The notes below the pieces were generated by a model that saw only the letters and a list, made by a program, of their open reading frames with translations, had not been told where the DNA came from and searched no databases. The position numbers and the translations under genes were made by a program. This document shows, in pieces, positions 2,272-61,122 of a DNA stretch of 64,000 bases. The stretch comes from Octopus sinensis (taxonomy: Eukaryota), in assembly GCF_006345805.1 (NCBI RefSeq), contig NC_043008.1:50344001-50408000 (forward strand), given 5' to 3'. Position 1 is the stretch's first letter. The number at the start of each line of letters is the position of its first letter.

Positions 2272-2395
2272 ATCTTACAGCTGTTTCAGCCAAGAGGTAA
2301 AAATACCTCATTCTACCTTTATCCCTCCAGTAGACTGAAGTAATTAGCAGACGAAATTGAGGTACTTGGGTGCTTCTCTAGGCTTCGTAAGAGAT
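2272..2395 (-). ncRNA. degenerate type I hammerhead ribozyme (Penelope-type), core G5U
   Basis: Minus strand: AUCU-CUUACGA-AGCCUAGAG...CUCUUGGCU-GAAA-C-AGCU-GUA-AGAU. Stems I, II and palindromic stem III all pair. Confidence 0.65.
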
Positions 2396-2561
2396 TTTAG
2401 AAAGTATATAAGGTTAAGTTATAAATATAAATACACACTAATATACATACTTTTACATATACATGCATATACATAAATATACATAAACACATGTCCCTAC
2501 ACTTAAATGTACATGCATATTTGCATGTATATGCATACAAATGAATCAATTGCTATTATTA

Positions 2562-2613
<52 letters not shown>

Positions 2614-2796
2614 CAGATGCATTATATTATTCATATTACATAAAATATAAACAGAGGTGTGAGAAAGTTATAAGAGAATTAATATTGTAATTTATAAAAT
2701 CAATACATCTTGAAGTTATTTTAGTTATGTAAGGATGAAACTGTATATACATGAGGAACACACACACACACACACACAACACACACACACACGCAC

Positions 2797-2856
<60 letters not shown>

Positions 2857-2925
2857 CATATAAATTAGAAAGTGGAGATACATCAATTAATAAGTATATT
2901 TATTAACTGCAAAATTAAACACGAT

Positions 2926-3009
2926 ATCTAACAGCTGTTTTGATTCATACTTTAAACATTATAATTGTATTAATTAAATCATTTTATAAAGCATAATCTC
3001 GTTAGAGGC
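2926..3009 (-). ncRNA. highly degenerate hammerhead ribozyme relic
   Basis: Minus strand: CUAACGA-GAUUAUGCUUUA...UAAAGUAUGAAUC-AAAA-C-AGCU-GUU-AGA. Two core substitutions; stem II and palindromic stem III are retained. Confidence 0.45.
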
Positions 3010-3127
3010 AGAATAATAGAGAGAAAGAACTGGTTTCTAACCTAAATCCAAGGTTCCTTCATTGGAATTTCAACATCAACAACAGGGTATTTTTGTATGC
3101 ATGCATGCATGTATGTATGTATGTATG

Positions 3128-3159
<32 letters not shown>

Positions 3160-3319
3160 CATGTATGCATGCATGTATGTATGTATGTATGTATGTATGT
3201 ATGTATGTATGTATGTATGTATGCATGCATGCATGCATGCATGTATGTATGTATGTATGTATGTATGTGTGCAGATTTGTATGTTTTATGTATGTATTCT
3301 CATGCATATAGCTACATAT

Positions 3320-3660
3320 CTAGACATGCTCATATATATTTAAATGATAAATGTCTTGAAATTTTAACAGATTTTTATAGTTCCAGTGATGGATTGGATC
3401 TGTTGTCTTCAAAATTAGCTTTCTGCTTTCTAGTTTTGAGAAGCCTAATTTCTCAAGATTGGTATTTAGGAAATCTGTTACATATCCCAGGGCCCCAATA
3501 ATTACAGGTATAAACCTGAACTTGTAATCTGTATAGAGTAACTGCAGATTTCTCAATAGTTCAGCATAGGTGTTCTCTTTTTCACTGATCTTCAGTTTTA
3601 TGTTAACATCCGCTGGACAGCTGATTTCCACAACTGCCCCACAGTTTCTCTTCTCACATA
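3320..3660 (-). mobile_element. 3' fragment of an RLE-type non-LTR retrotransposon (R4/Dong/NeSL-like endonuclease C-terminus)
   Basis: VVEISCPADVNI...EKENTYAELL...FIPVIIGALG matches the restriction-like endonuclease tail (E-x-x-x-P, K-x-x-x-Y, IIGALG). Confidence 0.8.
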
Positions 3661-3704
3661 CGTATGTATGTATGTATGTATGTAAGTATGTATGTATGTA
3701 TGTA

Positions 3705-3749
<45 letters not shown>

Positions 3750-3926
3750 GTGTGTGTGTGTGTGTGTCCTTTTGTCTGCATTTGTCACGCACCACTGCTT
3801 GACAACAAGTGTTAGTGTGTTTACACTTAGCAGTTTGGCAAAAGTGACTGATAAAACAAGTACCGGTGGTGGTGGGGTTAAAAATAAAGTCTTGCTTGAC
3901 TAAATATCTTCAACATACATACATAC

Positions 3927-3959
<33 letters not shown>

Positions 3960-4112
3960 CACATGCACAAAGGGGGGATGTGTGTGTGTGTGTATAGACA
4001 TTTGCTTTCTGTGTTTTATAACTACTTGTTGTTTTCTCACTGTCCTACCCCCACCCACTCTCTTCACCATTGTCTTATGTCAACAAACACATATACTCCC
4101 TCACATTTTGGC

Positions 4113-4145
<33 letters not shown>

Positions 4146-4446
4146 CAAGCGTGCACACACACACACACACATAGAAGTTTCTGCCTGTTATTTGTAAGCC
4201 ATTCCTCTATTTGTGTGTGTGTGTATAGATACATGCATACATATATACATACATACATACATACACACACACACATGTATGTATGTATATATATATATAT
4301 ATGTAGACACCGATACATAATATATCTACATGCGAAAACACACACACACATATACATTCCCACAGACAGAGAGATACACATTCTTCTTTTACTCATATGT
4401 ACACATTTCACTCTCTATTTCCCTGTTTTTGATATATACATGTGTG

Positions 4447-4483
<37 letters not shown>

Positions 4484-4509
4484 GTGTATATATATATATA
4501 TGTATATGA

Positions 4510-4547
<38 letters not shown>

Positions 4548-4734
4548 GATATATATATATACACACACATATACATATATATATCTATTATATACATATA
4601 TACATATACATATGTATATGTATATACACACACACAGACTCACAGAGGTACACATTATACACACTTCATATAGTTTCCTTTTCAATGACATATCTTATTC
4701 ACACATCCATCAAATATAAACATTCACATGAGCA

Positions 4735-4900
4735 AACCACCACCACCACCACCGCTGCCACCGCCACCACCACCACCGCTAAAACCGCCACCACCACCAC
4801 CGCTGCCACCGCCACCACCACCACCGCTGCCACCGCCACCACCACCACCGCTGCCACCGCCACCACCACCACCGCTGCCACCGCCACCACCACCACCACC
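4735..4900. repeat. 21-bp GC-rich minisatellite built on (CCA)n
   Basis: Repeated CCACCACCACCGCTGCCACCG unit. Confidence 0.9.
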
Positions 4901-5273
4901 ATTGTCACCATTTTATATCCGCCTTCCATGTTGGCATATGCTAGACAAGTCGTCACATGGCCCATGTTATTTTCTTTCGGGTTCTACTTGCTCCAAAAGA
5001 CGGATTATCTGTCATACATGTTATGTCTCTTGGGTGCAATTGCTGGGTGTCCTTCCTGTTGCCACCCACGAAATTCCAAAGTGTACTGAATGTGTTTTCT
5101 TGTAGTACCAACAACACAAAAGTACTCAGCAACTCGAGGCACGTAGACCAAGGAGGGGAATAAAAGAAGGGGAAGCAGAAAGGTTAGAAATGGAGAGCTG
5201 AGTGGATGGAATGGGCAGAAATGTCTGGCAGCAGAATACAATGAGATTGAGAAGAGGAGAGAGAGTAATTCTT

Positions 5274-5620
5274 TTCTACTCTAGACACAAGGCCTGAAAA
5301 TTTGGGGGAGAGGGGCTGGTCACTTAGATCGACACCAGTATGCAACTGGTACTTAATTTATCGACTCTGAATGGATGAAAGGCAAAGCCGACCTTGGTGG
5401 AATTTGAACTCAGAATGTAAAGACAGGTGAAATACCACTAAGCATTCGCCCGGTGTGCTAACGTGTCTGCCAGCTCGGCTGCCTTGTAAAATACCAATCC
5501 TTATATCTTTACTACCCACAAGGGGCTACACACAGAGGAGACAAACAAGGACAGACAAACAGATTAAGTCAATTTTCTCAATCCCAGCGCGTAACTGGTA
5601 CTTATTTAATCGACCCCTTC
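5274..5620 (-). mobile_element. SINE family B, one full copy plus one 3' fragment
   Basis: Reverse complement of the GAGCTGGCAGA...GAGTTCAAATTCC...GCCTTTCATCC...AAGTACCAG family seen more than 15 times in the window. Confidence 0.8.
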
Positions 5621-5675
5621 ACCATCTACTTCAATTACTGTTTCCCATTTGCTTGGCAGACAGTCAGACTGTCAC

Positions 5676-5904
5676 TTAACCCTTTAGTGTTTAAACTGGC
5701 CAAATCCAGCCCAATATATTCTACATGTTTTATATTCAAACTGGCGATATCTAGCCTCTCACTCCTAACCTACAATGCCATTCTGAAAATAAGTAATCAC
5801 ATCATTGAAACCTCAAAGCAATAAGATAATGCATGATTAATTCAAAACAATTTGAGTGAAAAAGTATTATATTTAACAGAGTGTTCTGAACACTAAAGGG
5901 TTAA
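5676..5904. mobile_element. piggyBac-type MITE
   Basis: TTAA-CCCTTTAG...CTAAAGGG-TTAA; related copies at 38511-38739 and 52431-52638. Confidence 0.85.
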
Positions 5905-7214
5905 TGATGTTTTTGTTAAATATTGTTATTGTTTTTGTTGAATAAAATTTGTTGAAAAGAAGCTGCAATAATTATGCACCAACCCAATATGTAGTACCAG
6001 TCATACGATTGGGGTGTATGACACTGTAATGACAGCTCAAAAGGCTTGCATGCATACAAGTCCCCCACCACCATTACCGACTTGAGAAAAAATTTTGGGT
6101 TGAAAGGGTTACCCAATTCCACTTACAAGGTATTGGTCGACCCACCTCTATAGTATAGAATATCAACTAAAACCATTCACAGAATGGGTTTGAGCCTCTA
6201 ATTGCATAGTTCGCATAGTCTCAAAGGGAACTTCTTGATCATACAGTAATGCCTGTGGCTATAGAAGCAATTTGCTCCCAAGAACAATATGAAAGTCTCT
6301 TTTGCACCCTTGAACCCAAGCACCCTTCTTGCCTCTTTTAAAATAAAAATTTTAAACCCTGACTGCTTCCACAACAACCTGTATTTCTCTATATGGAGAA
6401 AATGTTAAGTGTTTGGGTCGATAAATAAAGTACCAGTTTCGCACTGGGGGGCGATATAATTGACTTAATTCCTTTGTCTGTCCTTGTTTGTCCCCTCTAT
6501 GTTTAGCCCCTTGTGGGCAGTAAAGAAATATATATTCAATACAAAATTTAGTGATATTTGTCTCTTCAATTGTGCAAGTAATTCTGATGCCGATGGTACA
6601 GTGCTAGAAATTCTAATGCAGCCTGGATGTCAGTAGCTGCTGATTGTTCTGTTCTTCAAATGCTATGGAGATTAAACCATTTCTTGAACTTTCCATTCCA
6701 CCCATGACAAGAAACAAAGCATTGCAATGACTTTCTCAGTTTCTTCTTGTTTCCACTGTTTAAATAAATTTAATGACTTTTATTGGTTAATATGGCTTGA
6801 AAGGATGACAGGTGACACTTTGACATATCATTCACCCAAACACTTAACATTTTCTCCATATTCTTCACATTAGTTCCAGAACTACACGATTCTTATCTTC
6901 TTTTATCTTTTGCTTGTTTCAGTTATCAGACTGCAAGCTTTGAAGAATTTGGTTGACCAAATCGCCTGTCCCCCACCTCACCCTGTCCTCCGTACTTATT
7001 TTCCAGCCTAGTACTTATTTTATCGGCCTCTTTTGCTGAACCGCACTGGGCTGTGGGGGACACAAACAAAGCAACACAAGTTGTCAAGTGGTGATGGGGG
7101 ACAAACACAAAGACACACACACTGAGGTCAGGAAAGCCAGTAGCTACATCAGGCACCATTCTGATCTGGCAATGTTTCTACAGCTGGATGCCCTTCTAAT
7201 ACCACACCACACAC

Positions 7215-7245: not shown

Positions 7246-7254
<9 letters not shown>

Positions 7255-7524
7255 GGGAAAGTTTACGAAAATAAACAAAAGACGAAGGCAGGTGGAGTAC
7301 AAACAAACAAATGTATGAGTATAGCGCTCAGAAATAGAAAAAGTCTTTTATGTTTCGAGCCTACGCTCTTCAACAGAAAGATACACAGAAAAAACTGTTG
7401 AAGAGCGTAGGCTCGAAACGTAAAAGACTTTTTCTATTTCTGAGCGCTATACTCATACATTTGTTGTTTGTACTCCACCTGCCTTCGTCTTTTGTTTATT
7501 TTCGTAAACTTTCCCTTAATATAT
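7246..7524. repeat. foldback palindrome (about 130-bp arms, 18-nt spacer) carrying a hammerhead-like motif in each arm
   Basis: Arms 7246-7376 and 7395-7524 are near-perfect reverse complements; motif CUGUUGA-A-GAGC-GUAG-GCUC-GAAA-CGUA-AAAGA. Confidence 0.85.
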
Positions 7525-9025: not shown

Positions 9026-9241
9026 TATATATTATGTGAAATAGAAAGATGAATAATCTTGTAGTAGATTAATCAAAAGTTTACCGATACCTTAGTAGCA
9101 AAAATCACAGCAGTAAACAGCACGGTGGAGGTACAACCATCTGGCGTTGCAACCGTGCGTTGGTGCGGATAATTGAAATTAAAACATTATTGGTGAATTG
9201 AAGAAATGGAGCTGAACGCAGATTGAACAGAAATCGTTTTA

Positions 9242-9333
9242 TTTCATTCTACACGTGTTTCGAAAGGCACAAATTACCAAAATCCGATTGAATAATGGGA
9301 CCATATTGTGTCTTTCTCTTCAGGAAGAAAAAA
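9242..9333 (-). ncRNA. type I hammerhead ribozyme, mirror copy
   Basis: Reverse complement of 9343-9433 with the same intact core. Confidence 0.75.
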
Positions 9334-9342
9334 CGGATTTCC

Positions 9343-9433
9343 TTTTTTCTTCCTGAAGAGAAAGACACAATATGGTCCCATTATTCAATCGGATTTTGGT
9401 AATTGTGCCTTTCGAAACACGTGTAGAATGAAA
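9343..9433 (+). ncRNA. type I hammerhead ribozyme, intact core
   Basis: UUC-CUGAAGA(9353-9359)-GAAAGACACAAU/AUUGUGCCUUUC (stem II, 11 of 12 pairs)-GAAA(9414-9417)-C-ACGU-GUA(9423-9425)-GAA. Confidence 0.8.
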
Positions 9434-9517
9434 TAAAACGATTTTGTTCAATCTGCGTTCAGCTCCATTTCTTCAATTCACCAATAATGTTTTATATATA
9501 TATATATAATATATATA

Positions 9518-11228: not shown

Positions 11229-11820
11229 TAGGCAGACAAACCACAAATCCCTTCAGGTAGATGGCCCTGCTCAATCTGTAGAAAAGGTGTAGGTAGAAAG
11301 TGCATAAGATGCACCCAGTGTAAGCTCTGGACACATAAAAGGTGCAGCAATATCAGAGGAAGGTTAACAGGGAAACTAGCTTTTGTATGTGGAAGATGCA
11401 CAGGTACAATAAACACTGAAAATGGACAGAAAATAGATTCTATCAACTGCCAGGAGAGCAAGTTAGAGGTAGTCGGTAGCTTCTGTTATCTTGGTGATCA
11501 AGTTAGTAGTGGTGGTGGATGCTCCGAGAGAATAGCTGTGAGAATAAGATTAGGCCGGGTAATGTTCAGAGAATAAGATTAGGCTGGGTGAAGTTCAGAG
11601 AATAAGATTAGGCTGGGTGAAGTTCAGAGAATAAGATTAGGTTGGGTAATGTTCCTACCCCTGCTGGCAACAAAGGATGTCTCATTCAGAGTGAATGGCA
11701 GATTGTTTGACGCCTGCGTGTGAACTGCTATGCTGCATGACAGTGAAACATGTGCTATGACAGCTGAGGTCATGCGTAGGCTTGAAAGAAATGAAGCCAG
11801 TATGCTTCATTGGATGTTTT
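11229..11820 (+). mobile_element. RTE/RTE-X LINE ORF2 fragment with Cys-rich (PHD-like) insert; internal 29-bp tandem repeat at about 11539-11654
   Basis: CSICRKGVGRKCIRCTQCKLWTHKRCS...FVCGRC...KLEVVGSFCYLGDQVSSGGG; four copies of GAGAATAAGATTAGGCTGGGTGAAGTTCA. Confidence 0.8.
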
Positions 11821-16494: not shown

Positions 16495-17547
16495 CACTGA
16501 TTAAGCAGTCAACAAAATTGAATGTATTATATTCATTATGGATGCAAACCAACTTTTTAAGACTAATTTTTCATGCTGATTTCAAAATTTCAATCCATTT
16601 GTATGCAGCACGTATCAGTTTTTCAGTAGATTCCTGCAGGTATTTACATATTTGTATATATGAAATCATTAATGTCATAAATAAGGACAGATTATTTTTA
16701 GAAAATAAATGAATTTATTGAACTAAAAATCATATTCATTCTACAAAGAGTGAATACACAAAAAAAAAATGGGTCAGACAAAACAGACAAAGTTAGAACA
16801 AGAGAGTTAGAAACATTGTGATTTGGATTTCTTGCAGTGTTCCTGATCTGGTTGATCATGGTAAAGTGTCAAGTAATAGTCAGCCAGCATACTGTTATTC
16901 CAGAAGCCTTGGTACTGTTTCTCCATAGCACTAATGTCCTGGTGAAATCTTTCACCATAGCCATCAGACACTGCTCCAAGGGTATCTGTGAAGAAATCCA
17001 GATGGGAGTCCAAGAAGTGAACTTTCAATGACATGCAACAACCCATTGCTGAGTAATATTTCAGAAGATTCTTGATGCCATCTTTGTAGTCCATTGCCTT
17101 CTTGTTGCCCAAGAAATTCCCACAGATCCAATTGAAAGCATTCCAGACAGGAATGCTTTCCTGTTCATCCAGAATTGTCTTGAAGTTGACATCTTTGAGT
17201 ACTTCTTTAATTTGGGGCCCAACAAAGATACTCTCTTTCAACTTCACCTATGTGAAGACAAAACTTGGTTGGTTAATTTCAAGATGATGAAATATTGCTT
17301 CTGAACTATGCAGCAATGAATAATGTGGTTTATTTTAAAGGTATGTTTCCATGATGTAAATGAAATACATGCATACACGTCATCTATTGGAATTTCTATA
17401 TAATGCTTGAGCTAAAACCAAAAAACTTTCTCATCTCGAAAACTGCACGTGATGTCAAAAAACTAATTGTATATTTGAAATCAGCATTAAAAACTACACT
17501 AAGTGCACCTTGACATTTGCTTGATGAAAAATACTTGTTGACCAGTG
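16495..17547 (-). mobile_element. internally deleted Chapaev3-like (CMC) DNA transposon with transposase C-terminal remnant at 16807-17247
   Basis: IFVGPQI...FLGNKK...MSLKVHFLDSHLDFF..LGAVSD..GERFHQDI..ME..YQG; CACTG terminus at 17547 and inverted subterminal ATGCTGATTTCAAA motifs. The family name is from recall. Confidence 0.7.
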
Positions 17548-18771: not shown

Positions 18772-19843
18772 GGCAAGCTGGCAGAATCGTTAGCACGCTG
18801 GACAGAATGCTTAGCGGTATTTCATCTGCTGTTACGTTCTGAGTTCAAATTCCGCCGAGGTCGACTTTGCCTTTCATCCTTTCGGGGTCGATTAAATAAG
18901 TACCAGTTACGCACTGGGGTCGATATAATCGACTTAATCCGTTTGTTTGTCCTTGTTTGTCCCCTCTGTGTTTAGCCCCTTCTGGGTAGTAAAGAAATAG
19001 GTATTTCATCTGCTGCTACGTTCTGAGTTCAAATTCCTATTTCTGTACTATCCACTAGGGGCTAAACAGAGAGAGGACAAACAAGGACAGACGAATGGAT
19101 CAAGTCGATTATATGGATCCCAGTGTATAACTGGTACTTAATTTATCGACCCCGAAAGGTTGAAAGGCAAAGTTGATCTCGATGGAATTTGAACTCAGAA
19201 TGTAACGGCAGACGAAATATGGCCGCGCATTTCGCCCGGTGTGCTAACGATTCTGCCAGCTCGCCGCCTTTCTAAATTCAAATTCCTCCGTGGTCGACTT
19301 TGCCTTTCGTCCTTTCGGGGTCGATTAAATAAGTACCAGTTCTGCATTGGGGTCGATATAATCGACTTAATCCGTTTGTCTGTCCTTGTTTGTCCTCTCT
19401 GTGCTTAGCCCCTTGTGGGTAGTAAATAGGTACTTCATCTGTTGTTACGGTCTGAGTTCAAATTCCGACATGGTCGACTTTACCTTTCAGGGTCGATAAA
19501 ATAAGTACCAGTTACGCATAGGGGGGTCGATGTAATCAACTTAGTCCCTTTGCCTGTCCTTGTTTGTTCCCTCTATGTTTAGCCCCTTGTAGGCAATAAA
19601 GAAATAAGTTAGCTTTGGTGAGCTGGCAGAAACGTTAGCACACCGGGCGAAATGCTTTGCAGTATTTTGTCTGCTGTTATGTTCTGTGTTCAAATTCTGC
19701 TGAGGTCGACTTTGCTTTTCATCCTTTCTGGATCGATAAATTAAGTACCAGTTACACACTGGTGGTTGATGTAATCGACTTAGTCCCTTTGCCTGTCCTT
19801 ATTTGTTCCCTCTATGTTTTGTCCCTTGTGGGCAATAAAGAAA
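18772..19843. mobile_element. cluster of tandem and inverted SINE family B copies inside a family A head
   Basis: + copies at 18772-19036, 19275-19605 and 19617-19843; - copy at 19037-19270; flanking TAAGAAGTTAG duplication at 18757 and 19844. Confidence 0.85.
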
Positions 19844-20729: not shown

Positions 20730-20819
20730 AAGGACCCTGAAATGGCTTATATATAATGGAACTGTGATTATGTGTATCAGAAAAAAAACATATGTAAGTC
20801 GAAACAATTTGTTGGCCTT
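20730..20819 (+). ncRNA. degenerate type I hammerhead (core G8 deleted)
   Basis: AAGGACC-CUGAAAU-GGCUUAUAUAU/AUAUGUAAGUC (11-bp stem II)-GAAA-C-AAUUU-GUU-GGCCUU. Confidence 0.55.
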
Positions 20820-21359
20820 TTCCGGTTTTTATAATTATTTATATATTATATTACATTATATATTATATTCATAGGATTTAATGTAATATTGTAATCTAAA
20901 TAAATTATTGGATTGTCAATAGAATATTGGTATATATAATTTATTTTTATACATATATATAAAATTAAAATTAAAATGATGATGATGATGATCTCAACTT
21001 GGTCAGTGGATTCCTTGTTAGCTGAGTGCTTCTCAGCTTTAAACAAAGAGTTACTCTCTTCTCGACACTGACGAGCAGACTGGCTATTGAACCTTTCCTG
21101 GACTGAATCAACACAAATGCTGTCAAATGAGTCCTCTGTAACCATATCCAATAGAAACAACAAATGGTTAGCACTCAATAAAAAAGTAAGAATTACCCCA
21201 AACCAGGATTGCATATGAAAGATATTATGCTGTTATGAAGGGCAAAATCAACATGAAACAGCTAATTCAGAGAAATGTTGTCATCCATTGGAAGCATTGA
21301 ACAAAAACTTGTAAAACAAACATAGCCATTGTTTGTCAGTTGTAAGGGGTGTTGTTCAT

Positions 21360-21805
21360 AATCCTTTCTACTAAAGGCACAAGGCCTGAAACTTTTGGGG
21401 AAGGGACTAGTTGATTACATCGAACCCAGTATTTCACTGGTACTTAATTTATCAACCCCGAAAGGATGAAAGGCAAAGTTGACCTCGGCAGAATTTGAAC
21501 TCAGAACGTATAGGTAGACGAAATGCCGCTATGCATTTTGCCCGGCCTGCTAACAATTCTGCCAGCTTGCCACCTTGTCTATATTATAATCTTTTCTATT
21601 ATAGGCACAAGACCTGAAATTTTTGGGTAGGGGACTAGTTGATTACATCAACCCTAATGTTTCATTAGTGCTTAATTTATTGACCCCGAAAGGATGAAAG
21701 GCAAAGTCAACCTCGGCGAAATTTGAAATCAGAACGTAATGGCAGATGAAATACTGCTAAGAATTTTGCCCGGCATGCTAACAATTCTGTCAGCTTGCTG
21801 CCACA
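21360..21805 (-). mobile_element. two tandem SINE family B copies (short-tail subfamily)
   Basis: Direct repeat of about 225 bp, each copy ending in TAGAAAGGATTAT-like sequence on the minus strand. Confidence 0.8.
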
Positions 21806-26945: not shown

Positions 26946-27323
26946 TGCTTAGTGGTATTTCGTCTGCCATCACGTTCTGAGTTCAAATTCCGCCGAGGTC
27001 CACTTTGCCATTTCATCCATCCGGGGTCGATTAAATAAGTACCAGTTACTCACTGGAGTCGATGTAATCGACTTAATCCGTTTGTCTGTCCTTGTTTGTC
27101 CCCTCTGTGTTTAGCCCCTTGTGGGTAATAAAGAAATAGGTATTTCGTCTACCGTTATGTTGTAAGTACAAATTCCGCCGTGGTCCACTTTACCTTTCAT
27201 CCTTTTAGGGTCAATAATTTAAGTACCAGTTACACACTGGCGTCGATGTAATCGAGTTAACCCCTTTGTCCGTCCTTGTTTGTCCCCTCTGTGTTTAGCC
27301 CCTTGTGGGCAATAAAGAAATAG
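26946..27323 (+). mobile_element. SINE family B headless head-to-tail dimer (about 185-bp unit)
   Basis: Units 26955-27139 and 27140-27323 are joined at GAAATAG|GTATTTC. Confidence 0.85.
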
Positions 27324-27778
27324 GTACTCTGAATAGTGTATCAGTTGATGGAATGCTGCATCATGTTCTGCATATTCAAAGGGTGATTAGCTCTTCCGAT
27401 GATGAAGGGGAGAGGTAAAGCAGCCCTGTGACCCTATAGAGATCTCTAAGGGAACATGTCCTCACTGCTAGGTGGATGGATGATTATGAGACAACAGAGG
27501 AGCAGTGATTTTTAGATCGGGGTTGGGGGTTGGGGTGGCATGTGGTGGAAGGGAGACTGGAAGAGAGAAGAGGTGATGTCACATCAGCGAGTGAGAAGAA
27601 AAGTTTCCCTCTTGTTCATGTTACCTGCGACAGAGGTGAGATGTGGCAAAGAGAGGTCATGGCAACCCGTGTTAAGAATTGAACAATCTGCCAGTGGTAC
27701 CCGACTGCAAGTTGAGGTAAGAACAACTTCATTTATGTTCCTTCAAACCACATTGGTGAGAAAGGACCTACAAACATT

Positions 27779-29983: not shown

Positions 29984-30094
29984 ATGGCGAATCCACGGAA
30001 GTTCAGTGAGAAGATAGCTTTACATAATCAAAAGCAGGCAGAGGAGACAGCTGCTTTCGAAGCTATTATGCGCGAAGTTTCGGGAGCTACTAGG
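29984..30094 (+). CDS. CRTC1: CREB-regulated transcription coactivator, coding exon 1 (TORC_N CREB-binding domain)
   Basis: [37 protein letters not shown] is the diagnostic CRTC N-terminus; 111 nt ending at AGG|GTAAGT, phase 0. The symbol is nominal for an invertebrate CRTC orthologue. Confidence 0.97.
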
Positions 30095-45355: not shown

Positions 45356-46262
45356 ATTATTAGTCAGTTAGTTAACCATTTAACCAGTTAATTAATCAAT
45401 TGTTTAATTAATTACATGGTCAATTAATTGATTATTTAATTGGATTGATTGACCAAAGAATTAAACAATTGATTAGTTAAATTTTAACTAATTAACTAAT
45501 AATAATAATAAAAGTGAAACAGACCCAGTGCATGTGTTTATAATTGGTATAGAATGACCCCACTAAGATATAGCAAGATTATTTTGCAGTTGTATGTTCT
45601 TTCAACCAAGTTCATCAGTTCTGTTTAATATGTAGGCACAAGGTATTTTAGTAATAATAAAAGTGAATGTAAACTGTACAATTTGTCTAAAATTTACATT
45701 TTCAGATTCAATTTTATTTCAGATTGTGAAAAGATATTTGATATATATATATATATATATATATATTTCTTCATTTCAATTATATCAAAAAATGTTGCAA
45801 TTTGGTTGTAAATTTATTTGCATTAGCCATCACCATATTTTCACAATTACTGATCCAGTTATATTAATTTAATTCTCTATTCTCTGTGTACATAAAGCAT
45901 AGCCTAGAAACTAAAATATTTCGTATAATCATGTTTTCATTACATGTGGCCTTGCTGTGGATGGAATCTTGAGTACACACCCTAAGTTCTAGTCAGCTCA
46001 GCATGGATATCTGAATGACTGCAGTATCATTACCCATGCTACTTTCTCAAAAACTTGTGGATTTTTTCACTAACATTCATTCCACAACAAGTATATATGT
46101 TTTAAACATATACTTATTTACCAAATTTTAATTTTTGGGGGGTTGGGGTGGTGGTTAGTAAGCATTAAGTGCAATATTCTTTACTTACTTGAGAACATTG
46201 TATATTTAAGTGTATTAATACTCACTGTTGTACATCTTAGTATATTCAACTTTTATATATAT

Positions 46263-46494
46263 ATTTCTTTACTACCCACAAGGGGCTAAACACAGAGAGG
46301 ACAAACAAGGACAGACAAATGGATTAAGTCGATTACATCAATCCCAGTGCATAACTGGTACTTAATTTATCGACCCTGAAAGGATGAAAGGCAAAGTCGA
46401 CCTCGGCAGAATTTGAACTCAGAACGTAACGGCAAATAAAATATGGCTATGCATTTCGCCTGGCGTACTAACATTTCTGCCAGCTCACCGCCTT
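46263..46494 (-). mobile_element. SINE family B
   Basis: TSD TTCAACTTTTATATAT at 46245 and 46496. Confidence 0.85.
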
Positions 46495-47088
46495 TTTCAA
46501 CTTTTATATATTTATTCATAGATTCAGAGAGAGAGGTCAGTTTCCAGAGCTGTATAGCTGAGTGATTTGGGGTATAGTTAGGGCAGTTGGTGTTAAGGTA
46601 ATTGACTTAAATATTCAAGAAGTACCAGTTACGCAGTTTAAGAGTGGGCATTGGGAAATACAAGTATCAGTGCTAATGTATGGTTACTATTGCAGATAGC
46701 TTAATTAACCTGGTGTTCTCACATCAGGTTTATTATTCTAATTGTATCAAAGAGTATAACAAGAATGTACTTTTATTGTTGGGTGAATAATTTTTCATCT
46801 GAGATAGGTAATCAATAGTTTGAGAGACGGCCAACAATATCAAAGTACTGTATGTACTGTGATTTTATTTGGCCCAGGATTACACACTACAGGGTACTAT
46901 TCTCTCATCAACATGAATTGCCATCAAGGGAAAATGCACAATTTTTTCATTAATTCCATGTTCTGAGAAAAGGGGATTGTACTTTTCATGCACACATTTA
47001 CTGGGCTTTGCTCAGTAGCCATTCGAATTTTGGGATCTTTATTTATACATTTCTTTTGCATCATTTATAAAACAATATTACAATGTAA

Positions 47089-47302
47089 AGGCGGCAAGCT
47101 GGCAGAAACGTTAGCATGTTGAGTGAAATACTAAGCGGTATTTTGCCTGTCTTTATGTTCTGAGTTCAAATTCTGCCGAGGTCGACTTTGCCTTTCATCC
47201 TTTTGGGGTTGATAAATTAAGTATTAGTTGCATACTGGGGTCGATCTAATTGACTGGCTCCCTCCCCCAAAATTTTGGGCCTTGTGCCTAGAGCAGAAAA
47301 GA
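47089..47302 (+). mobile_element. SINE family B
   Basis: Full head GGCGGCAAGCTGGCAGAAACGTTAG through the tail. Confidence 0.85.
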
Positions 47303-48251
47303 ATATCACAATGTGAAAAATCATTATCCTTGTTATTTCCATATTTACAACATTATATTGATTTGAACTTGAGCTTTCATGAAATTCCACTACTTCTAAG
47401 TCATCTCTCTCTTTCACACACACACACATCCATGCACATTCTGCCATTACAATTTCTGGATGCATTATTTGTGTGTGTGTCTGCATGTCCCCTCAACCTC
47501 TCCATCATGAGCTGTTGCTTAGTTATAAATTAATTAGTGCTAAGCAGATGATAGATAAAACAGCTCTTGGATAGACTACCTGCTTGTTGCAGGTAACATT
47601 CCCATAAGATGTAGCTATTTCTCCACATGTAGAACTGAGACATTTCTAGAGAAACTACATAACACCTGCAGCATGTATACTCTCACTTATAACCTGTGTG
47701 TCTATGTAATATAATTATGTGTGAATGAATATATGATTCTTAGCATGGAAAAGTTTATGTAAGAATCATATTTCTCATTGGTCTAGTTATAAAATTCAAA
47801 AAATATCAGACTCAGGAGAGATTCAACTTCCTTGTCACACAAACATATTTTGTTGATATTCGTATTTCAGAAAAGCATTGATGAGAGAATCAATATTCAT
47901 CAGTATCCTAGAATAGCATTAAAAAAAAAAGAATGAATTTGTATCAACACATAATAACTACAACATAATTATAAATGGAGTGCTCAGTTTTAGAGAGTGT
48001 TTATCTAGCTGTATTGAGACCTTTGTAACATATGTTCAAAGTATATTTGTTGTTTAGATTTTAATATATATATATATAAAGACTTTTTAGTTTTTATAAA
48101 TCAAAGTAAAATAGGATAACGATATTAATATATGAACCTAAGCATTTCACAATTTTTTCCTGATTAGAATTTATTAAACAGGTCTTAGGATTGCACTTTA
48201 TTCAAATTGGCACACACACAAAAAAGTTGTCTTACCTTCTATTTCTTACAG

Positions 48252-53070: not shown

Positions 53071-55544
53071 ACTGCATCAGAAAGTCAGGATTGACAAAGC
53101 TGGGAACACAGCTAATGTCTCTGTTATACTCAAGGCATGATCACACCTAATGTACACATCTGGGCAGGTTATTATGGTAATTTTTCATTGCCCAGGCACT
53201 GTAGTTACCTTCCCATAATGTCATTCAGATAAGTAGCAGAACCATATGTGCATTTCAAATGGAAAATTCATAAATTAATTCATTTTCTGTTGCTAATTAA
53301 AGCTGTTCTGTTCTGATAGACATATAAAAACATTTTGCATGGTAGTTCATGTGTTCATATGCATGTAACATGAGGGAATGTCTGTGCCTGCCATTCACAA
53401 AATGTGAACTCAAAACAGCTGTAGAGAATAGAGTTTATTTTACAATTAAATCTCATGGTGAATCATGGTATTTAGTTATGGCATCTTGGGCAGTTATCCT
53501 CTACTTTGGTCCAGGGCGACCAGTTACTTTATGGGAGGTATTGATTGATAAAAACTATTAAATCTCTCTCTCTCTCTCTCTCTCTATCTCTATCTCTCTC
53601 TCTCTCACACACACACAGACATATTTGTACAGAAGTTGTCATTGCCATTCCTTCACATGAGGCTGCCTTCCATTAAAAAAGGGTTTTGCTATGCTTGGAT
53701 TCCCAGTAAACATTATATGTTGTTTTGCTACTTAGTGGAGTAAACAAAAATCCCTTCTATTGAGAATAGTTAAGGGAGGGAGAGCATTCAGTCTTGAAAT
53801 ATGAAGAATCCATCCTACCTGTGCCAGCAAGATACAAAGTAAATGAATATGCTTGTGCATACATACGTATGAATGTACCTACGTATGTATGTATACTATC
53901 CTTGAAGCCGCCCTTTGGATGGCATTCAGGCTAGCTCCTGCCGAGGGCACCTTTGAGGCCTTGGGTCCCACTATTGGGCTGCTTTGCGGCCCTTTACTCT
54001 TGTGTAATGAAACATATTTGTGCAAATATGCTAAGCATTGATGCTGATCATAGTTTAATCAATAAGCGTAGGAGTGAGGTAAATACAGTAAAAATCGTGG
54101 GTGGGGCCCCATTTAAGTGGCCCTTCAGAAATTGAACCTCCTTACAATACTTCCTGGGAGTTCATGGTATGAAATTCATTGTCATTGCTCCAATTTGGTT
54201 GGTAATGCCATGTATTTAGTTTAAAATGCAATACAAATAGGAAGGGTCAGTGGGGCCCCAATTAGGGGACCTTAAAAAATAGACCCCCCCCTCATAGTAC
54301 TTTCCCTGGGATTAGAGGAGTTGCTGGTTTGAGTTTCGTTGTCCTTGCACCAATGGTCCTGGATGAGTTAACAAACATAAAAACGAAATAGACAGAAAAA
54401 CATCACTCAAATTTATATTAAAGTAAAAATAACAAAACAAGAAGCTGGTAAATTTTTTTGTATTTATTCACCATTACAGATGTTCTATTTGTTAATACGG
54501 ATCGCAAAGTTGTAGATGCTGGAAAAACATCTAAGAAATTTGCTGTTAGAAATTCTTCAAACGCTTCATCCAGATGTAAATTAGTATTATTTAATTCTCT
54601 GTCTGAAGAATTTCTAAGCAGGAAGTTTCTTTCATGTCTTTCCACCATGTACAACTTTGATTCCTATCAGCAAATGAAACATATGTAATGGTGAATAAAT
54701 AATGTCAAAAAATTTCCCAACTTTCTGTTTTGTTATATAATAACTCTACAAGCAATATTTCTAGAATTTTCAACTCTGCGATGTAACCCACATTAATACA
54801 ACTAACACATATGGATTGTAATAATGGAATAAGCAGATGTGCTTCAAGAGGACACAGCTTGGATTTTACCCTACCTATATACACATATATATATACATAT
54901 ACATACACATATATATGATGGCTGTAACTTAGTTTTGGGCTATGTTATTACTCTGTTGTTCTCGTAAACATGCGCCGCATGGGTGTGGTCTTTCAGTGTT
55001 GCTAAGGACCGACACTATTTTAACAAAGATGAGTGCCTTTTGCAACAAATATTTGGAGAGTTACCACCCATGCTGACACATACTTTCATTCCATCATGGG
55101 ATTTTCAATTGAATGTTTTGCCATTCTTGGTTATGGCCAGCCACTGTATGTAACACATAAGAGAGATTTTAAAAATCAAGTGTTGTCTGTGCCTGAAGCA
55201 CTTTAAAGTGAAGAAAAGCCTTGCACAGGGCATACCCCACCCTCTAAACTTGTATTCGTTTCCTCACAAAAATGAACTAGTTTACATCATTGGAGGCAAA
55301 TGAAGTTGCAGGGTTACATCTAAATTATTGTTGAGTCTAAGCAAAGACTTGTGGTCTTTCACTACTAGTAATTGGATGGCTGTTGACACTACTGAGTTAA
55401 CCTGCCCTTTGATAGGGTTTTTATCTGGCAGGGTGTCCAAACAAAACCACCTTCCTTACAAAGTAGGTTTGCCAGTTTACCTGTTGACAACATGACTGTG
55501 CGACAGATTGTACTGGGTTATATACATATATATATATATATATA

Positions 55545-55910: not shown

Positions 55911-56069
55911 CTTTATTATTTTAAGCGGCAAAAACATCACAAAAAAACTGCTACTCAGAGTTTCACATTCATTTGACAGTTGTGATTGAGATCTCAATCA
56001 CAACTGTCCAATGAATGTCAAACTCTGAGTAGCAGTTTTTGTGATGTTTTTGCAGCTTTAACAATAAAG
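55911..56069. repeat. spacer-less palindrome (about 160 bp) centred on GAGATCTC
   Basis: AAAAACATCACAAAAA..CTGCTACTCAGAGTTT..ACAGTTGTGATTGAG|ATCTCAATCACAACTGT..AAACTCTGAGTAGCAGTTTTTGTGATGTTTTT. Confidence 0.9.
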
Positions 56070-56124
56070 CATATTACTCTACCTCTAGTATTTGAGTACT
56101 ATTTTTCCCACCTTGTTTCACATT

Positions 56125-56158
<34 letters not shown>

Positions 56159-56492: not shown

Positions 56493-56524
<32 letters not shown>

Positions 56525-56527
<3 letters not shown>

Positions 56528-56873: not shown

Positions 56874-56931
<58 letters not shown>

Positions 56932-57125: not shown

Positions 57126-57157
57126 GTGTATATATATATATATGTGTGTGTGTGTGC

Positions 57158-57195
<38 letters not shown>

Positions 57196-58028
57196 TTTTA
57201 TGTGTATTTTTACCAGGTTGTGCTATTTATACATGGCCTGGGCCTATGCTGGCCAAAACCTATCAAAGTTACACATATATATGTATTTTTATGTGTATAT
57301 ATATGTATATTTGTGTGTGTGTCTGTATATATATATATATATATATACACATATATGAGAGAGAGAGAGAGAGTTGAAAAGACATAGATATGGAATGCTA
57401 TTAGGTATGAAAGAGAAATCTTACTGAGAAGAGAAGATAGAGAAAGAATTGGAGATATATGGAGACAGAGTATAAGACAGTGGGAAGTAGAAAGACAGAA
57501 AGGGGGAGAGAAAAACAGAGAGCAGGTATGTAGGCAAAATGTTTTAAAAACCCAGAAGCAGTTTAAGAGGAGGAGAGAGTAAATGATAGAAGGATATCGA
57601 TATATATTTTAAAGTTCATTCTGCATTCTTAAATCTTATCTTGCATATAATAAAATGCTATGTGTTTCACATAAGTCACAGTGGCAGAGGTAAGCTAAAG
57701 CAATAAATAGTGAGTGATAGTGAGAGGTTTACTCAGAAATCATTTTGCAAACTTTTATTCGAAATAATATTTACACACAAGCATCATCATCATTTGATGT
57801 CCGTATATTTTCTATACGTCCAAATAGAAAATAACGCACAAGTGTTCAAATGATTTTAACTTAACCTTAGAAATCTTTATTGAGGACTGGGTCTGTGGGG
57901 TAAAGGGTGGCTATAAGAGAAATCCAGGTGAGCTGATATGCAGGTAGTGATGCAGATAAACATGATTAAGTATGATGTGTATATGGTGGTTGTCTACTCC
58001 TTATGCAGAGTTTGACCACCTCCTGTAC

Positions 58029-58600
58029 CTATACCTTAGAACCATCATGGCATCTGATGTGGCTTTTTAAACCAGACAATGTTTTGAAAAGACACCCACA
58101 TAGATTGCATATCTGATTTGATCCACCAAGAGCTGCAGATAAGTTCAGGTCTTTGTGGATCTTACAATGTCTTTTGAAGTCTTTTTGCAAACCTTCTGGC
58201 ATACATTGCACTGAAAGGTGTGCACAGACATAGGCAGAATAGTTGGTGGAGGTTCGTTTTTCCATGGGTTTGCAAATGAAAAGAAAGGCATGGTCTGTCA
58301 AACTGCATACAAAAAGGTCATTGTGATTCACCTCGATCGTAACATTCTTCCTTCTTCCTTTAATCTAATGCCATTCCTGTCGTCAACCCTCACCTGGAAG
58401 CAGACAATAAAGCAAACTGGGCTGGACAAATGCCCAATCTCTAATTTTTCCTCACTATCTTCTCACACTGTTTTGAACATATCCACTCACCCTTCCTAAT
58501 CCTTGGTCCATACTTTCTCTTGTATTCGTCTTCTTGTACCTTGAGAATAGGTCCTGACCATCATCTTGCAGCTAGTCCCACCATCTCTTATGTAATGCAA
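58029..58600 (-). mobile_element. RTE-clade LINE 3' coding remnant with terminal C2H2 finger
   Basis: ICNLCGCLFKTLSGLKSHIRCH; upstream RPILKVQE..IQEK resembles the decayed RTE 'GRP..R.KD' region. Confidence 0.65.
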
Positions 58601-59221
58601 ATTAACCATGTATCTCTTTTATAGCAAGACACATGCACCTGTCTCTCTATCACACTTGAGCCTGTCAATAGCTGACATAAAAGTAAAGCCACTTACCCTT
58701 CTGTACTACAACCCCACTCAGCTGATGTGTGTATGTGTATATATATATATATATCATCATCATCGTTTAACGTCCGTTCTCCATGCTAGCATGGGTTGGA
58801 CGGTTCGACCGGGGATCTGGGAAGCCAGAAGGCTGCACCAGGCTCCAGTCTTATCTGGCAGTGTTTCTACAGCTGGATGCCCTTCCTGACGCCAACCACT
58901 CCGTGAGTGTAGTGGGTGCTTTTTACGTGCCACCTGCACAGGTGCCAGGCGAGGCTGGCAACGGCCACGGTCGGATTGGTGTATTTTATGTGCCACCGGC
59001 ACGGAAGCCAGACGAGGCGGTGCTGGCATCTGCCACGAGTCGATATATATATATATATAACTTACCGCAACTGCGGTAAGTACGAAATCACAGGTGATAC
59101 AAGACTAAATTCATTTTTAAATGTCTTGCTTTGAAAAATTGCATTCGGTATGATTAGTAAAATTTTTGGTAGAAATGACTAATGTCCCTCTTAGCGTGTG
59201 GCATGTATGTGTAATAATGCC

Positions 59222-59282
<61 letters not shown>

Positions 59283-59369
59283 TATTCGAGACAAAACCAC
59301 TATTTTGCAAAACAAACAAGGAAAGACTTAATTAATACATAAAATTTTAATAAATAGTCAAAAAAACCG

Positions 59370-59412
59370 CCACTACAATCGTTTCTTGTCTTGATCGACA
59401 ATCTTCAGGTGG
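59370..59412 (-). ncRNA. type I hammerhead ribozyme, mirror of 60909-60951
   Basis: Exact reverse complement. Confidence 0.75.
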
Positions 59413-59834
59413 ACTTCAATTCATTATTGCTCTAGCATATCATTGATACACTTTCATCCACTTCTACATACAAATACATCATCATCATTGTCACCATTAT
59501 CATCATCACTTAACGTCTGGTTTCCATGCTGGCATGGGTTGGACAGTTCAATTGCAGTTGGCAAACCAGAGGAGTGCATCGACCTCTATTATCTGCTTTG
59601 GTATGGTCTCTATTGTTGGGTGCCCTTCCTCAGATCAACTACTTTGCAGGGTGTACTGGGTGCCTTTTACGTGACATCATCACTGGTGTGGTTACCAAGT
59701 ACCTTCACCTTTTCCTCCATGGCAGGTCATGTTTTCATGCTGTTGTTATCCGTAGATTTATTGCAGGAACTTTGTCATAGCAGTTGGGGTAACAGTCTAA
59801 TAAAATAGATGGAATGAGTAAAATATTTTATTAG

Positions 59835-59876
59835 GTACGACACATGTTTCGACCTGTTCTGAGTCTCTTCGGGTAC
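59835..59876 (-). ncRNA. hammerhead variant, mirror of 60443-60484
   Basis: Exact reverse complement. Confidence 0.65.
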
Positions 59877-60442
59877 ATCTATAAACAGAGTCTAACTAGA
59901 GATTTTCTGATTCGGTTTTACATACTGCTCCATGTCCATCACCAGAGGAACATAAATTTCCAAACAGTTCTTATTCAAAGTGATAAGTTCTCAGAGAGTA
60001 GATACATTTTCCAAAATTTGAGCAGGTGGAAGTCTTCTTGCAACTGCTGCGATAATTATTAACTGGTAATTGAACGGTAAATGTGTATTTTTATATACCT
60101 TGGACTTGCCACCTCAATGTTTTTTGTCAAGAGTTTCACCTCCAGCCGTTCCTGTTGACTGACATAACGAACGGCTGGAGGTGAAACTCTTGACAAAAAA
60201 CATTGAGGTGGCAAGTCCAAGGTATATAAAAATACACATTTACCGTTCAATTACCAGTAATAATTATCGCAGCAGTTGCAAGAAGACTTCCACCTGCTCA
60301 AATTTTGGAAAATGTATCTACTCTCTGAGAACTTATCACTTTGAATAAGAACTGTTTGGAAATTTATGTTCCTCTGGTGATGGACATGGAGCAGTATGTA
60401 AAACCGAATCAGAAAATCTCTAGTTAGACTCTGTTTATAGAT

Positions 60443-60484
60443 GTACCCGAAGAGACTCAGAACAGGTCGAAACATGTGTCGTAC
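60443..60484 (+). ncRNA. minimal type I hammerhead, core U4C variant
   Basis: GUAC-CCGAAGA-GACU-cagaaca-GGUC-GAAA-C-AUGU-GUC-GUAC. Confidence 0.7.
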
Positions 60485-60908
60485 CTAATAAAATATTTTA
60501 CTCATTCCATCTATTTTATTAAGACTGTTACCCCAACTGCTATGACAAAGTTCCTGCAATAAATCTACGGATAACAACAGCATGAAAACATGACCTGCCA
60601 TGGAGGAAAAGGTGAAGGTACTTGGTAACCACACCAGTGATGATGTCACGTAAAAGGCACCCAGTACACCCTGCAAAGTAGTTGATCTGAGGAAGGGCAC
60701 CCAACAATAGAGACCATACCAAAGCAGATAATAGAGGTCGATGCACTCCTCTGGTTTGCCAACTGCAATTGAACTGTCCAACCCATGCCAGCATGGAAAC
60801 CAGACGTTAAGTGATGATGATAATGGTGACAATGATGATGATGTATTTGTATGTAGAAGTGGATGAAAGTGTATCAATGATATGCTAGAGCAATAATGAA
60901 TTGGAAGT

Positions 60909-60951
60909 CCACCTGAAGATTGTCGATCAAGACAAGAAACGATTGTAGTGG
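60909..60951 (+). ncRNA. minimal type I hammerhead ribozyme, intact core
   Basis: CCAC-CUGAAGA-UUGUC-gaucaa-GACAA-GAAA-C-gauu-GUA-GUGG; all three stems close. Confidence 0.8.
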
Positions 60952-61122
60952 CGGTTTTTTTGACTATTTATTAAAATTTTATGTATTAATTAAGTCTTTC
61001 CTTGTTTGTTTTGCAAAATAGTGGTTTTGTCTCGAATAATATTTTATAATATTTTACTATAAAATTGATTTAATCCTAAATCTGATTTTTTCCCTGTAAA
61101 TTTGGATTTATTCCCTAATATT

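What the first reader, a model, noticed from the sequence alone, without database searches (positions are those of the whole stretch)
2272..61048. Recurrent hammerhead-ribozyme foldback elements at (TA)n sites: a candidate RNA-level system
Seen: at least eight sequence-unrelated hammerhead-type motifs (2272, 2926, 7395, 9343, 20730, about 56015 half motif, 60443, 60909). They share the type I layout: stem I, CUGANGA, stem II, GAAA, tiny and often palindromic stem III, GUH. Four loci are head-to-head palindromes; in three the centre falls at or inside the ribozyme 5' part, and most loci abut (TA)n. Established: Penelope-like elements carry minimal type I hammerheads with palindromic stem III thought to cleave as dimers, and they often leave inverted terminal copies. 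Inference: many non-coding Penelope-derived families here insert as self-antisense hairpins, so each ribozyme comes with its own inhibitor strand and forms a long dsRNA. In an animal with heavy A-to-I editing this could couple editing to self-cleavage.
Basis: partly seen in the sequence, partly recalled or inferred. Interest (0 to 1): 0.8.

Follow-up and report, generated by a model that had tools for sequence, protein, structure and literature searches.

The report
Penelope retroelement traps spliced host exons
The hammerhead motifs are real parts of Penelope-type jumping genes, and the largest mirror-image insert is a DNA copy of a spliced host RNA joined to the element just in front of its ribozyme; these elements therefore copy spliced sense RNA, and they likely build their mirror-image inserts by priming twice on one RNA rather than to regulate the ribozyme.

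Summary
The interpretation does not hold. The motifs are pLTR ends of Penelope-like elements; two families (B, H) are protein-coding with Hydra-clade motifs. Hammerheads, (TA)n targets and inverted copies are published. New here: family H has an intron whose acceptor lies 13 nt before the ribozyme core, and the genome holds 615 unspliced and 441 spliced junctions. Spliced copies stop at one 5' limit 23 nt upstream of the junction, which explains why palindrome centres sit beside the ribozyme. The 59273-61125 palindrome carries five host exons from a 221-kb locus on another contig, joined at a GT donor to that acceptor. Five such insertions trace to three host loci, none with a cis partner within 143-317 kb. 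Paired arms always have one tailed and one short end, and some do not overlap, which points to twin priming on sense RNA and against the published antisense-template idea. I found no support for coupling to RNA editing, and could not test it directly.

The parts
2272..2395 (-). Decayed type I hammerhead, family A (core G5U; stem III ACAGCTGT; long loop II)
   Evidence: intact-core relative in L201
2926..3008 (-). Degenerate hammerhead-like motif (two core changes); no other copy found
   Evidence: sequence
7246..7524 (.). Head-to-head palindrome of short family C (minimal hammerhead, core CUGU-N-GA + extra A); tailed arm on minus strand ends at (TA)17; plus arm starts at the core
9033..9494 (.). 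Head-to-head palindrome of family B, 3' pLTR of a coding Penelope-like element; intact hammerheads 9353+ and 9323-; tailed arm 9033-9338 (minus), short arm to 9494; (TA)n on both sides
20730..20815 (+). Degenerate hammerhead-like motif (core CTGAAAT); no other copy found
   Evidence: sequence
29984..30094 (+). Coding exon of a CRTC/TORC gene ending at a GT donor; everything 3' of it likely lies in its intron
   Evidence: Pfam TORC_N E 7.5e-22; donor; next exon not located
54429..54736 (.).
55911..56125 (.). Palindrome of family F truncated inside loop II (3' half of a hammerhead only); tail ends at (TA)n
59273..60151 (-). Short (untailed) mirror arm of the chimeric insert: host exons 1-5 plus family H pLTR to position ~149; abuts (TA)26 at 59225-59276
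60152..60282 (+). Captured host exon 1 (3' part); source G000:C14:60233162-60233031, ends at GT
60283..60376 (+). Captured host exon 2; source C14:60227605-60227512, AG/GT
60377..60580 (+). Captured host exon 3; source C14:60122357-60122154, AG/GT; contains the older family G hammerhead (60443-60484), a passenger
60581..60617 (+). Captured host exon 4 (37 nt); source C14:60106780-60106744, AG/GT
60618..60899 (+). Captured host exon 5; source C14:60012332-60012051; its GT donor coincides with the junction to family H
60900..61125 (+). Family H pLTR exon, starting exactly at the element's splice acceptor; hammerhead 60909-60951; ~73-nt tail; abuts (TA)n at 61126-61159

Best explanation
The motifs are the hammerhead-bearing pLTR ends of several Penelope-like retroelement families, and the 59-61 kb palindrome is a retrocopy of a spliced host RNA joined at a splice donor to the acceptor in front of the family H ribozyme; the mirror-image form likely arises because the element primes both target strands on one RNA. 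Shown: family H has an intron ending 13 nt before the ribozyme core; spliced, unspliced and host-exon-fused copies all exist in the genome; the ribozyme is copied uncut; paired arms have one tailed and one short 3' end. Inferred steps: (1) transcription starts at an initiator-like site 23 nt upstream of the splice junction, or in a host gene whose donor is spliced onto the acceptor; (2) the enzyme nicks both strands of a (TA)n target and starts reverse transcription at two internal sites about 75-85 nt apart downstream of the ribozyme; (3) both cDNAs run towards the RNA 5' end and are joined head-to-head by microhomology. The fold centre therefore marks the template's 5' end, not a regulatory design. 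Whether the host-to-element splice occurs in cis, to an H copy missing from this assembly or further away (about 60%), or in trans (about 30-35%) is open.
For: Full-length H unit at C2:30656195-30664445 with RT and endonuclease ORF pieces, donor GT at 30662376 and acceptor AG at 30664203. It has 84 homologues at E<=1e-10, mostly 530-780 aa. Exact junction counts: 615 unspliced, 441 self-spliced; reversed-pattern controls 0. In the first 100 listed spliced matches, 32 head-to-head pairs, 31 of them with a gap <=30 nt; unspliced pairs are mostly kb apart. In 40 spliced loci the 5' match stops at exactly 23 nt in 14 arms and goes further in only one. 20 of 20 paired loci have one tailed and one short arm; in L232, L235 and L247 (3 of 20 single-match loci) the arms overlap by 0-6 nt, which a single cDNA folding back cannot give. 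Five chimeric insertions end at a GT donor of the source exactly where the acceptor begins: window (exons 1-5), C5:30.25M (1-4) and C7:50.76M (1-2) from the C14 locus; C7:84.91M from a DUF4674 gene on C5; C3:162.24M from C4. In 4 of the 5, both arms carry the same spliced exons. Contigs of run X18 (kind not on record) join exons 1-2 and 2-4 of the C14 locus. In vitro, a Penelope protein cuts and extends both strands, starts at two internal sites that delimit the tail, and uses uncleaved RNA (PMC11167929).
Against: No acceptor-bearing H copy lies 317 kb (C14), 200 kb (C5) or 143 kb (C4) downstream of the last captured donor, so the splicing partner is unidentified. One tested candidate chimera (L149, rhodanese domain) had no source found. 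18 of the 22 loci were not searched for a source, and some are plainly not chimeras (L146, L147/148). Many junctions with a short spacer fit single-cDNA fold-back as well. The start site is inferred from truncation limits only. A non-genomic G precedes 9 of the 14 full-length arms, but each can also come from the partner arm or spacer, and the 3 arms joined to other sequence show none, so a cap signature is not shown. The full-length H copy read is frameshifted (three frames). Twin priming is extrapolated from a different clade (Poseidon).
Confidence: 0.8

Rival explanations
1. The exon capture is as described, but the palindromes form when one cDNA folds back on its 3' end and copies itself.
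For: Both arms share subfamily variants and splice form in most two-armed loci examined; many centres have a short asymmetric spacer.
Against: The second arm ends at about 153 in 20 of 20 pairs, whereas the first ends at 238. Three loci have nearly or fully non-overlapping arms, and 4 of 20 pairs are perfect palindromes with no loop.
Confidence: 0.2
2. Antisense-template self-priming makes the head-to-head copies, as proposed for rotifer Penelope elements, which also explains intron retention.
For: Proposed in PMC3846280; 615 junctions retain the intron end.
Against: 441 junctions are precisely spliced, and most are in head-to-head form; host exons are spliced at sense GT-AG sites. It could still apply to unspliced copies or other clades.
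Confidence: 0.04
3. One reading: the fold-backs are a selected RNA-level system in which the antisense arm blocks the ribozyme and A-to-I editing releases it.
For: Fold-backs are predicted to pair 81-98% of bases and so would bury the ribozyme. Three of the five palindromes likely lie in a CRTC intron and would be transcribed. The one common variant inside the H ribozyme (29 of 124 arms) keeps the dimer helix paired, A-U versus G-U, which suggests selection on the element's ribozyme.
Against: Palindromy is family-dependent (family C: 1 of 29 others) and is explained by the insertion mechanism. Stem III needs a second sense copy, which a single palindrome does not supply. Editing would alter A6, A9, A13, A14 and A15.1 (established core chemistry). 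Several arms are truncated or mutated in the core. A search of 'cephalopod' + 'A-to-I editing' + 'hammerhead ribozyme' found 0 papers.
Confidence: 0.04
4. The chimeras come from reverse-transcriptase template switching or RNA ligation rather than splicing.
For: No cis partner was found for any of three sources.
Against: 5 of 5 traced junctions coincide to the base with both a host GT donor and the element's AG acceptor; two of those donors are also used at internal exon junctions of the window copy.
Confidence: 0.03
5. The palindromes are assembly artefacts of fold-back reads.
For: Arms are up to 99% identical, and the assembly has indel noise.
Against: Arms differ in length in a fixed way (tail or none), each side has its own flank, older palindromes have diverged arms (75-93%), and centres recur at one element position across contigs.
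Confidence: 0.02

Closest known systems
Hydra clade of Penelope-like elements (PMC8557442, section 11 read)
   Same: C-terminal endonuclease, DKT, CxCX5C linker, no CCHH pair, CxxC before the conserved E, hammerhead in the pLTR, (TA)n targets, inverted 5' copy with a one-sided tail.
   Different: The H unit spans 8 kb with a tandem-repeat region and a 1.8-kb intron (Hydra elements are described as <3 kb). Spliced genomic copies and host-exon fusions are not mentioned in the parts read.
Minimal hammerheads of metazoan PLEs (PMC4209133, parts 1-2 of 4 read)
   Same: Type I, palindromic tiny stem III, extra base after A9, many families per genome, dual motifs on opposite strands 100-700 bp apart, D. 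virilis intron ending at helix I.
   Different: Here the intron is shown spliced out in hundreds of genomic copies and used to trap foreign donors; family C has a fixed A6U core.
Adineta vaga Penelope elements (PMC3846280, passages and Discussion read)
   Same: Head-to-head palindromic junctions, tail, host sequence moved with pLTRs.
   Different: There the host gene kept its introns and lay between two pLTRs, and an antisense template was proposed. Here host introns are removed and exons are fused by splicing to one pLTR.
SVA exon trapping (SVA_F1/MAST2, MRPS18A; PMC12593883, passages read)
   Same: A host exon is spliced into an acceptor in the element and the chimera retrotransposes.
   Different: SVA is non-autonomous, L1-driven and uses a cryptic site. 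Here it is the autonomous element's own intron acceptor, multi-exon captures across >200 kb, palindromic products, and no cis partner found.
Poseidon PAc in vitro mechanism (PMC11167929, parts 1-2 of 4 read) and L1 twin priming (recalled, not read)
   Same: Two internal start sites delimiting the tail; both strands cut and extended; uncleaved RNA as template.
   Different: The paper does not derive the inverted copies from this in the parts read; L1 twin priming gives inversions without duplication.
Non-LTR retrozymes (bioRxiv 10.64898/2026.07.22.740005, part 1 of 5 read)
   Same: Short PLE-derived hammerhead elements; family C may be one.
   Different: Retrozymes are head-to-tail tandems; the window's elements are single or head-to-head.

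Membership tests
Type I hammerhead ribozyme | CUGANGA, GAAA and UH cores with stems I and II | tested here: met
   Met for 9353, 54603, 60913 (perfect) and 60447 (U4C); not met in full by 2272, 2926, 7395, 20730, 56015
Type I hammerhead ribozyme | Short palindromic stem III able to form a dimer helix | tested here: met
   Self-duplex -10.3 (B), -11.1 (A), -6.0 (G) kcal/mol; for H and E the script cut the stem too short, so pairing is read from the sequence
Type I hammerhead ribozyme | Self-cleavage | not testable with these tools
   Indirect test: 13 of 20 loci start at the cleavage site, but in the position control 6 of 33 truncations fall there against about 3.4 per neighbouring position: no clear peak
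EN+ Penelope-like element (family H) | RT followed by C-terminal GIY-YIG-type endonuclease | tested here: met
   Pfam gave no hit on the frameshifted pieces themselves; one homologue carries PF01541 and one PF00078
EN+ Penelope-like element (family H) | pLTRs with hammerhead, partial tandem, inverted 5' copy, one-sided tail | tested here: met
EN+ Penelope-like element (family B) | Endonuclease ORF end upstream of the hammerhead pLTR | tested here: met
   32-34% identity to a homologue of H's protein, E about 1e-20; RT not reached in 1.5-kb flanks; Pfam 0 hits
Hydra clade | DKT, RWK, CxCX5C linker, no CCHH, CxxC and CxH around E and N | tested here: met
   H: DKT, KWK variant, CxCX5C, CxxC, but CxH is absent in the copy read; B has CxxC and CxH; homologues: DKT 61, CxCX5C 61, R/K-W-K/R 66 of 84
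Hydra clade | (TA)n insertion | tested here: met
Hydra clade | Short element (<3 kb) | tested here: not met
   The ORF region is about 2.5 kb but the pLTR-to-pLTR unit is 8.0 kb; described as a general tendency, not a strict criterion
Hydra clade | Phylogenetic placement with reference Hydra RTs | not tested
   No named reference set was at hand; the assignment rests on motifs, so 'Hydra-like'
EN+ Penelope-like element (families A, C, D, E, F, G) | Link to an RT/EN ORF | tested here: inconclusive
   C: no upstream ORF link in 30 loci; the others had too few copies in hand
Non-LTR retrozyme | Head-to-tail tandem of hammerhead units | tested here: not met
   No such tandem among the window's elements
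Exon-trapped retrocopy (SVA-type) | Junction at host GT donor and element AG acceptor, introns removed | tested here: met
   5 of 5 traced insertions
Exon-trapped retrocopy (SVA-type) | Source element in cis downstream of the donor | tested here: inconclusive
   None within 317, 200 and 143 kb; could be further away or polymorphic

The most novel reading that the evidence does not exclude
The acceptor in front of the family H ribozyme is used in trans: element RNA is spliced onto free donors of host pre-mRNAs with very long introns, so any such transcript can be tagged with the pLTR and copied into (TA)n sites as an intronless hairpin gene. In favour: no cis partner near any of three sources, and two different H subfamilies (three diagnostic differences) fused to three different donors of one host locus.
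Probability: 0.3. Interest if true: 0.85.

Novelty: new variant of a known kind. Interest (0 to 1): 0.63.

Why it matters
Penelope-like elements are described as keeping introns on retrotransposition, and the origin of their inverted copies is called unexplained (PMC8557442 section 15; PMC3846280 Discussion). One young family here supplies over a thousand exact junctions that make this testable. Spliced sense RNA is a major template. Palindrome centres mark its 5' end. The two arms map to two start sites. The family also makes processed copies of host genes by exon trapping, giving near-perfect hairpins of host exons that could yield dsRNA or small RNAs against the parent gene (untested).

Tried and rejected
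The Rfam scan was swamped by microRNA models matching microsatellites and hairpins; only 150 of 295 rows were shown. Pfam found nothing for the PLE ORF pieces and PDB sequences nothing meaningful. No RNA holder was listed on record for 60152-61118, and contigs cannot show editing or read ends; A>G was not in excess of G>A in the laid contigs, which mix paralogues, so this is no evidence either way. Differences between retrocopies and source exons show no consistent A>G excess in C14- and C5-derived copies; the C4-derived copy has five A>G among about 12 differences, not separable from polymorphism. A second laying of reads at the acceptor gave no result, so RNA evidence for that junction is missing. 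A subfamily-specific search for the cis partner could not be run as written; neighbouring stretches were scanned instead. The source of the L149 rhodanese fusion was not found. The palindrome column was faulty (it missed the known palindrome) and was replaced. Alignment had wrong coordinates and was discarded. My first clade label 'Neptune-like' (notebook) was dropped after reading the motif definitions. The 'clear cap signature' in my notebook is withdrawn. Earlier-finding look-ups returned nothing. Literature searches for spliced PLE copies, PLE exon trapping or PLE twin priming listed no such report, judged from titles and abstract starts; the library lacks most subscription journals, Arkhipova 2003 and 2006 and Schostak 2008 were not read, and no supplements were opened, so prior description cannot be excluded.

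Full report
Checking the observation. I scanned both strands with a type I hammerhead descriptor. It found seven strict hits (9353+, 9323-, 54603+, 60447+, 59872-, 60913+, 59408-) against a mean of 0.03-0.05 in 100 local dinucleotide shuffles. 2272 has a G5U core, with an intact relative elsewhere. 2926 and 20730 have two core changes and no second copy in 1.68 Mb held. 7395 has a family-wide CUGU-N-GA core in which position 7 varies among copies, which fixes the register. 56015 is a half motif. Five head-to-head palindromes exist, one of them (54429-54736) missed. Such motifs are common in this genome: 19 hits in 980 kb of stretches not chosen for ribozymes, against 0-1 in shuffles.

What the motifs are. 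The window is G000:C12:50344001-50408000. Family B (9343) has at least 325 candidate places. Longer copies carry the end of an endonuclease ORF upstream of the ribozyme and end at (TA)n, and their palindrome centres vary from beside the ribozyme to about 700 nt upstream. Family H (60909) has a full unit on C2 with RT and endonuclease pieces and 84 homologues. Its motifs (DKT, CxCX5C, no CCHH pair, CxxC) match the Hydra clade as defined in PMC8557442 section 11; no tree was built. Family C (7395) is a short element of about 190 nt, nearly always single. Hammerheads in pLTRs, opposite-strand pairs, inverted copies with a one-sided tail and (TA)n targets are all published.

Why centres lie beside the ribozyme. 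Family H has an intron of about 1.8 kb whose AG lies 13 nt before the core, as reported for D. virilis. Exact patterns give 615 unspliced and 441 self-spliced junctions. Among the first 100 spliced matches are 32 head-to-head pairs, 31 with gaps of 30 nt or less; unspliced pairs are mostly kilobases apart. In 40 spliced loci (20 of those pairs and 20 of the 36 single matches) the upstream match stops at exactly 23 nt in 14 arms and exceeds it once. That limit sits at an initiator-like TCA site, so I infer it is the RNA 5' end. A cap-derived G is suggested (9 of 14 arms) but not shown. In family B, four loci share one 5' limit 21 nt before the core, though they were selected by a query containing the centre. 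Cleaved RNA is at most a minor template: over 1000 junction-bearing arms are copied from upstream of the ribozyme, and truncations show no clear peak at the cleavage site (6 of 33 after dropping 12 deletion or duplicate rows and one uncalled row of 46).

How the two arms arise. In 20 of 20 pairs one arm runs to the tail end (about 238) and the other stops near 153. In L232, L235 and L247 the tailed arm covers only about 148-238 and barely meets or misses the short arm; four pairs are loop-less palindromes. This fits two priming events at two internal sites, as shown in vitro for a Poseidon element that cuts and extends both strands, followed by head-to-head joining. Both arms usually share splice form and subfamily variants, so one RNA likely templates both. 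This step is inference; single-cDNA fold-back remains possible for many junctions. The antisense-template proposal cannot account for the spliced palindromes.

The large palindrome. Its arm is not one element. Bases 60152-60899 match five exons spread over 221 kb on C14, each bounded by GT and, for exons 2-5, AG, at 98-100% identity. The last exon's donor falls exactly where family H begins. The 60443 ribozyme is a passenger inside exon 3. Two further insertions join exons 1-4 (C5) and 1-2 (C7) of the same locus to the same acceptor. Contigs of one run of unrecorded kind join exons 1-2 and 2-4. A pattern for foreign exon-like ends before the acceptor gave 30 matches at 22 loci. Three were searched for a source: two traced to multi-exon loci on C5 (DUF4674 gene) and C4, again ending at GT donors; one (rhodanese domain) was not traced. 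A fourth is the C5 chimera above; 18 were not searched. This is exon trapping as known for SVA, here by an autonomous element's own acceptor. I found no report of it for Penelope-like elements in seven searches, with the limits given under Tried and rejected.

Cis or trans. No acceptor-bearing H copy lies within 317 kb, 200 kb or 143 kb downstream of the three last donors. The C7 chimera carries a different H subfamily from the window and C5 chimeras, so at least two H copies served one host locus. Lost or polymorphic intronic insertions of a young family explain this without new biology and I favour them (about 60%); trans-splicing is not excluded (about 30-35%).

A CRTC exon at 29984-30094 makes it likely that the three 3' palindromes are transcribed in an intron; the fold-backs I folded pair 81-98% (the large one was not folded). 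But a single palindrome supplies one sense copy of a dimer-type ribozyme, editing would hit core adenosines, and palindromy depends on family and template. No RNA data here could test editing. I rate this model at about 4%.

Papers seen: PMC4209133 and PMC11167929, parts 1-2 of 4; PMC8557442, passages and sections 11 and 15; PMC3846280, passages and Discussion; bioRxiv 10.64898/2026.07.22.740005, part 1 of 5; PMC12593883 and PMC6962438, passages. L1 twin priming, initiator consensus and hammerhead core chemistry are recalled. No supplements were read; those of PMC4209133 and PMC8557442 may hold related observations. The host species was not identified.

Verdict. The elements are known in kind and the proposed regulatory system is unsupported. 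The spliced copies, the exon trapping at the ribozyme-adjacent acceptor and the two-start arm pattern are a new variant that makes open questions on Penelope transposition testable. Interest 0.63.

Noticed in passing
L326:1400-2210 (G000:C25:1271766 and many other places); L154:810-947: A dispersed ~404-bp head-to-tail tandem family with an intact type I hammerhead (stem III ACTGCAGT), i.e. a retrozyme. Its ribozyme-containing part forms the first segment of the C3 chimera, ending at a possible GT donor just after stem I.
   Followed up: partly
window 7395-7422; loci L061-L090: Family C has a fixed A6U change in the hammerhead core (CUGU-N-GA) with a variable position 7; activity unknown.
   Followed up: partly
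L170 (C22:28403838) and L174 (C10642:48009): An LTR-retrotransposon RT-like fragment fused to the H acceptor in one arm, while the opposite arm is an unspliced H end; possibly two different RNAs in one insertion, or one locus assembled twice.
   Followed up: partly
L149 (C2:103191597): A rhodanese-domain coding stretch fused directly to the H acceptor; no source copy found.
   Followed up: partly
L037:2710; window 60435-60443; L137, L138: Other hammerhead families also show a pyrimidine-rich AG just before helix I or the core, suggesting the acceptor arrangement is general.
   Followed up: no
L060, L252, L254, L265, L271: A second spliced leader variant of family H joined to the same acceptor; not included in the count of 441.
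   Followed up: no
G000:C2:30658019-30658991: Asparagine-rich linker between RT and endonuclease in family H, like the N-rich inserts described in rotifer Penelope elements.
   Followed up: no
window 29984-30094: CRTC/TORC N-terminal coding exon with no further exon recognised in the following 34 kb.
   Followed up: partly
window 16807-17247 (-), 11232-11576 (+), 3320-3600 (-): Fragments that look like other transposon ORFs; the second has a weak PHD/C1 match.
   Followed up: no
window 18772-19426, 21358-21798, 26954-27326, 46257-47306: An abundant ~180-230-bp repeat in tandem and inverted arrangements (77-90% identity), able to form long dsRNA without any ribozyme.
   Followed up: no
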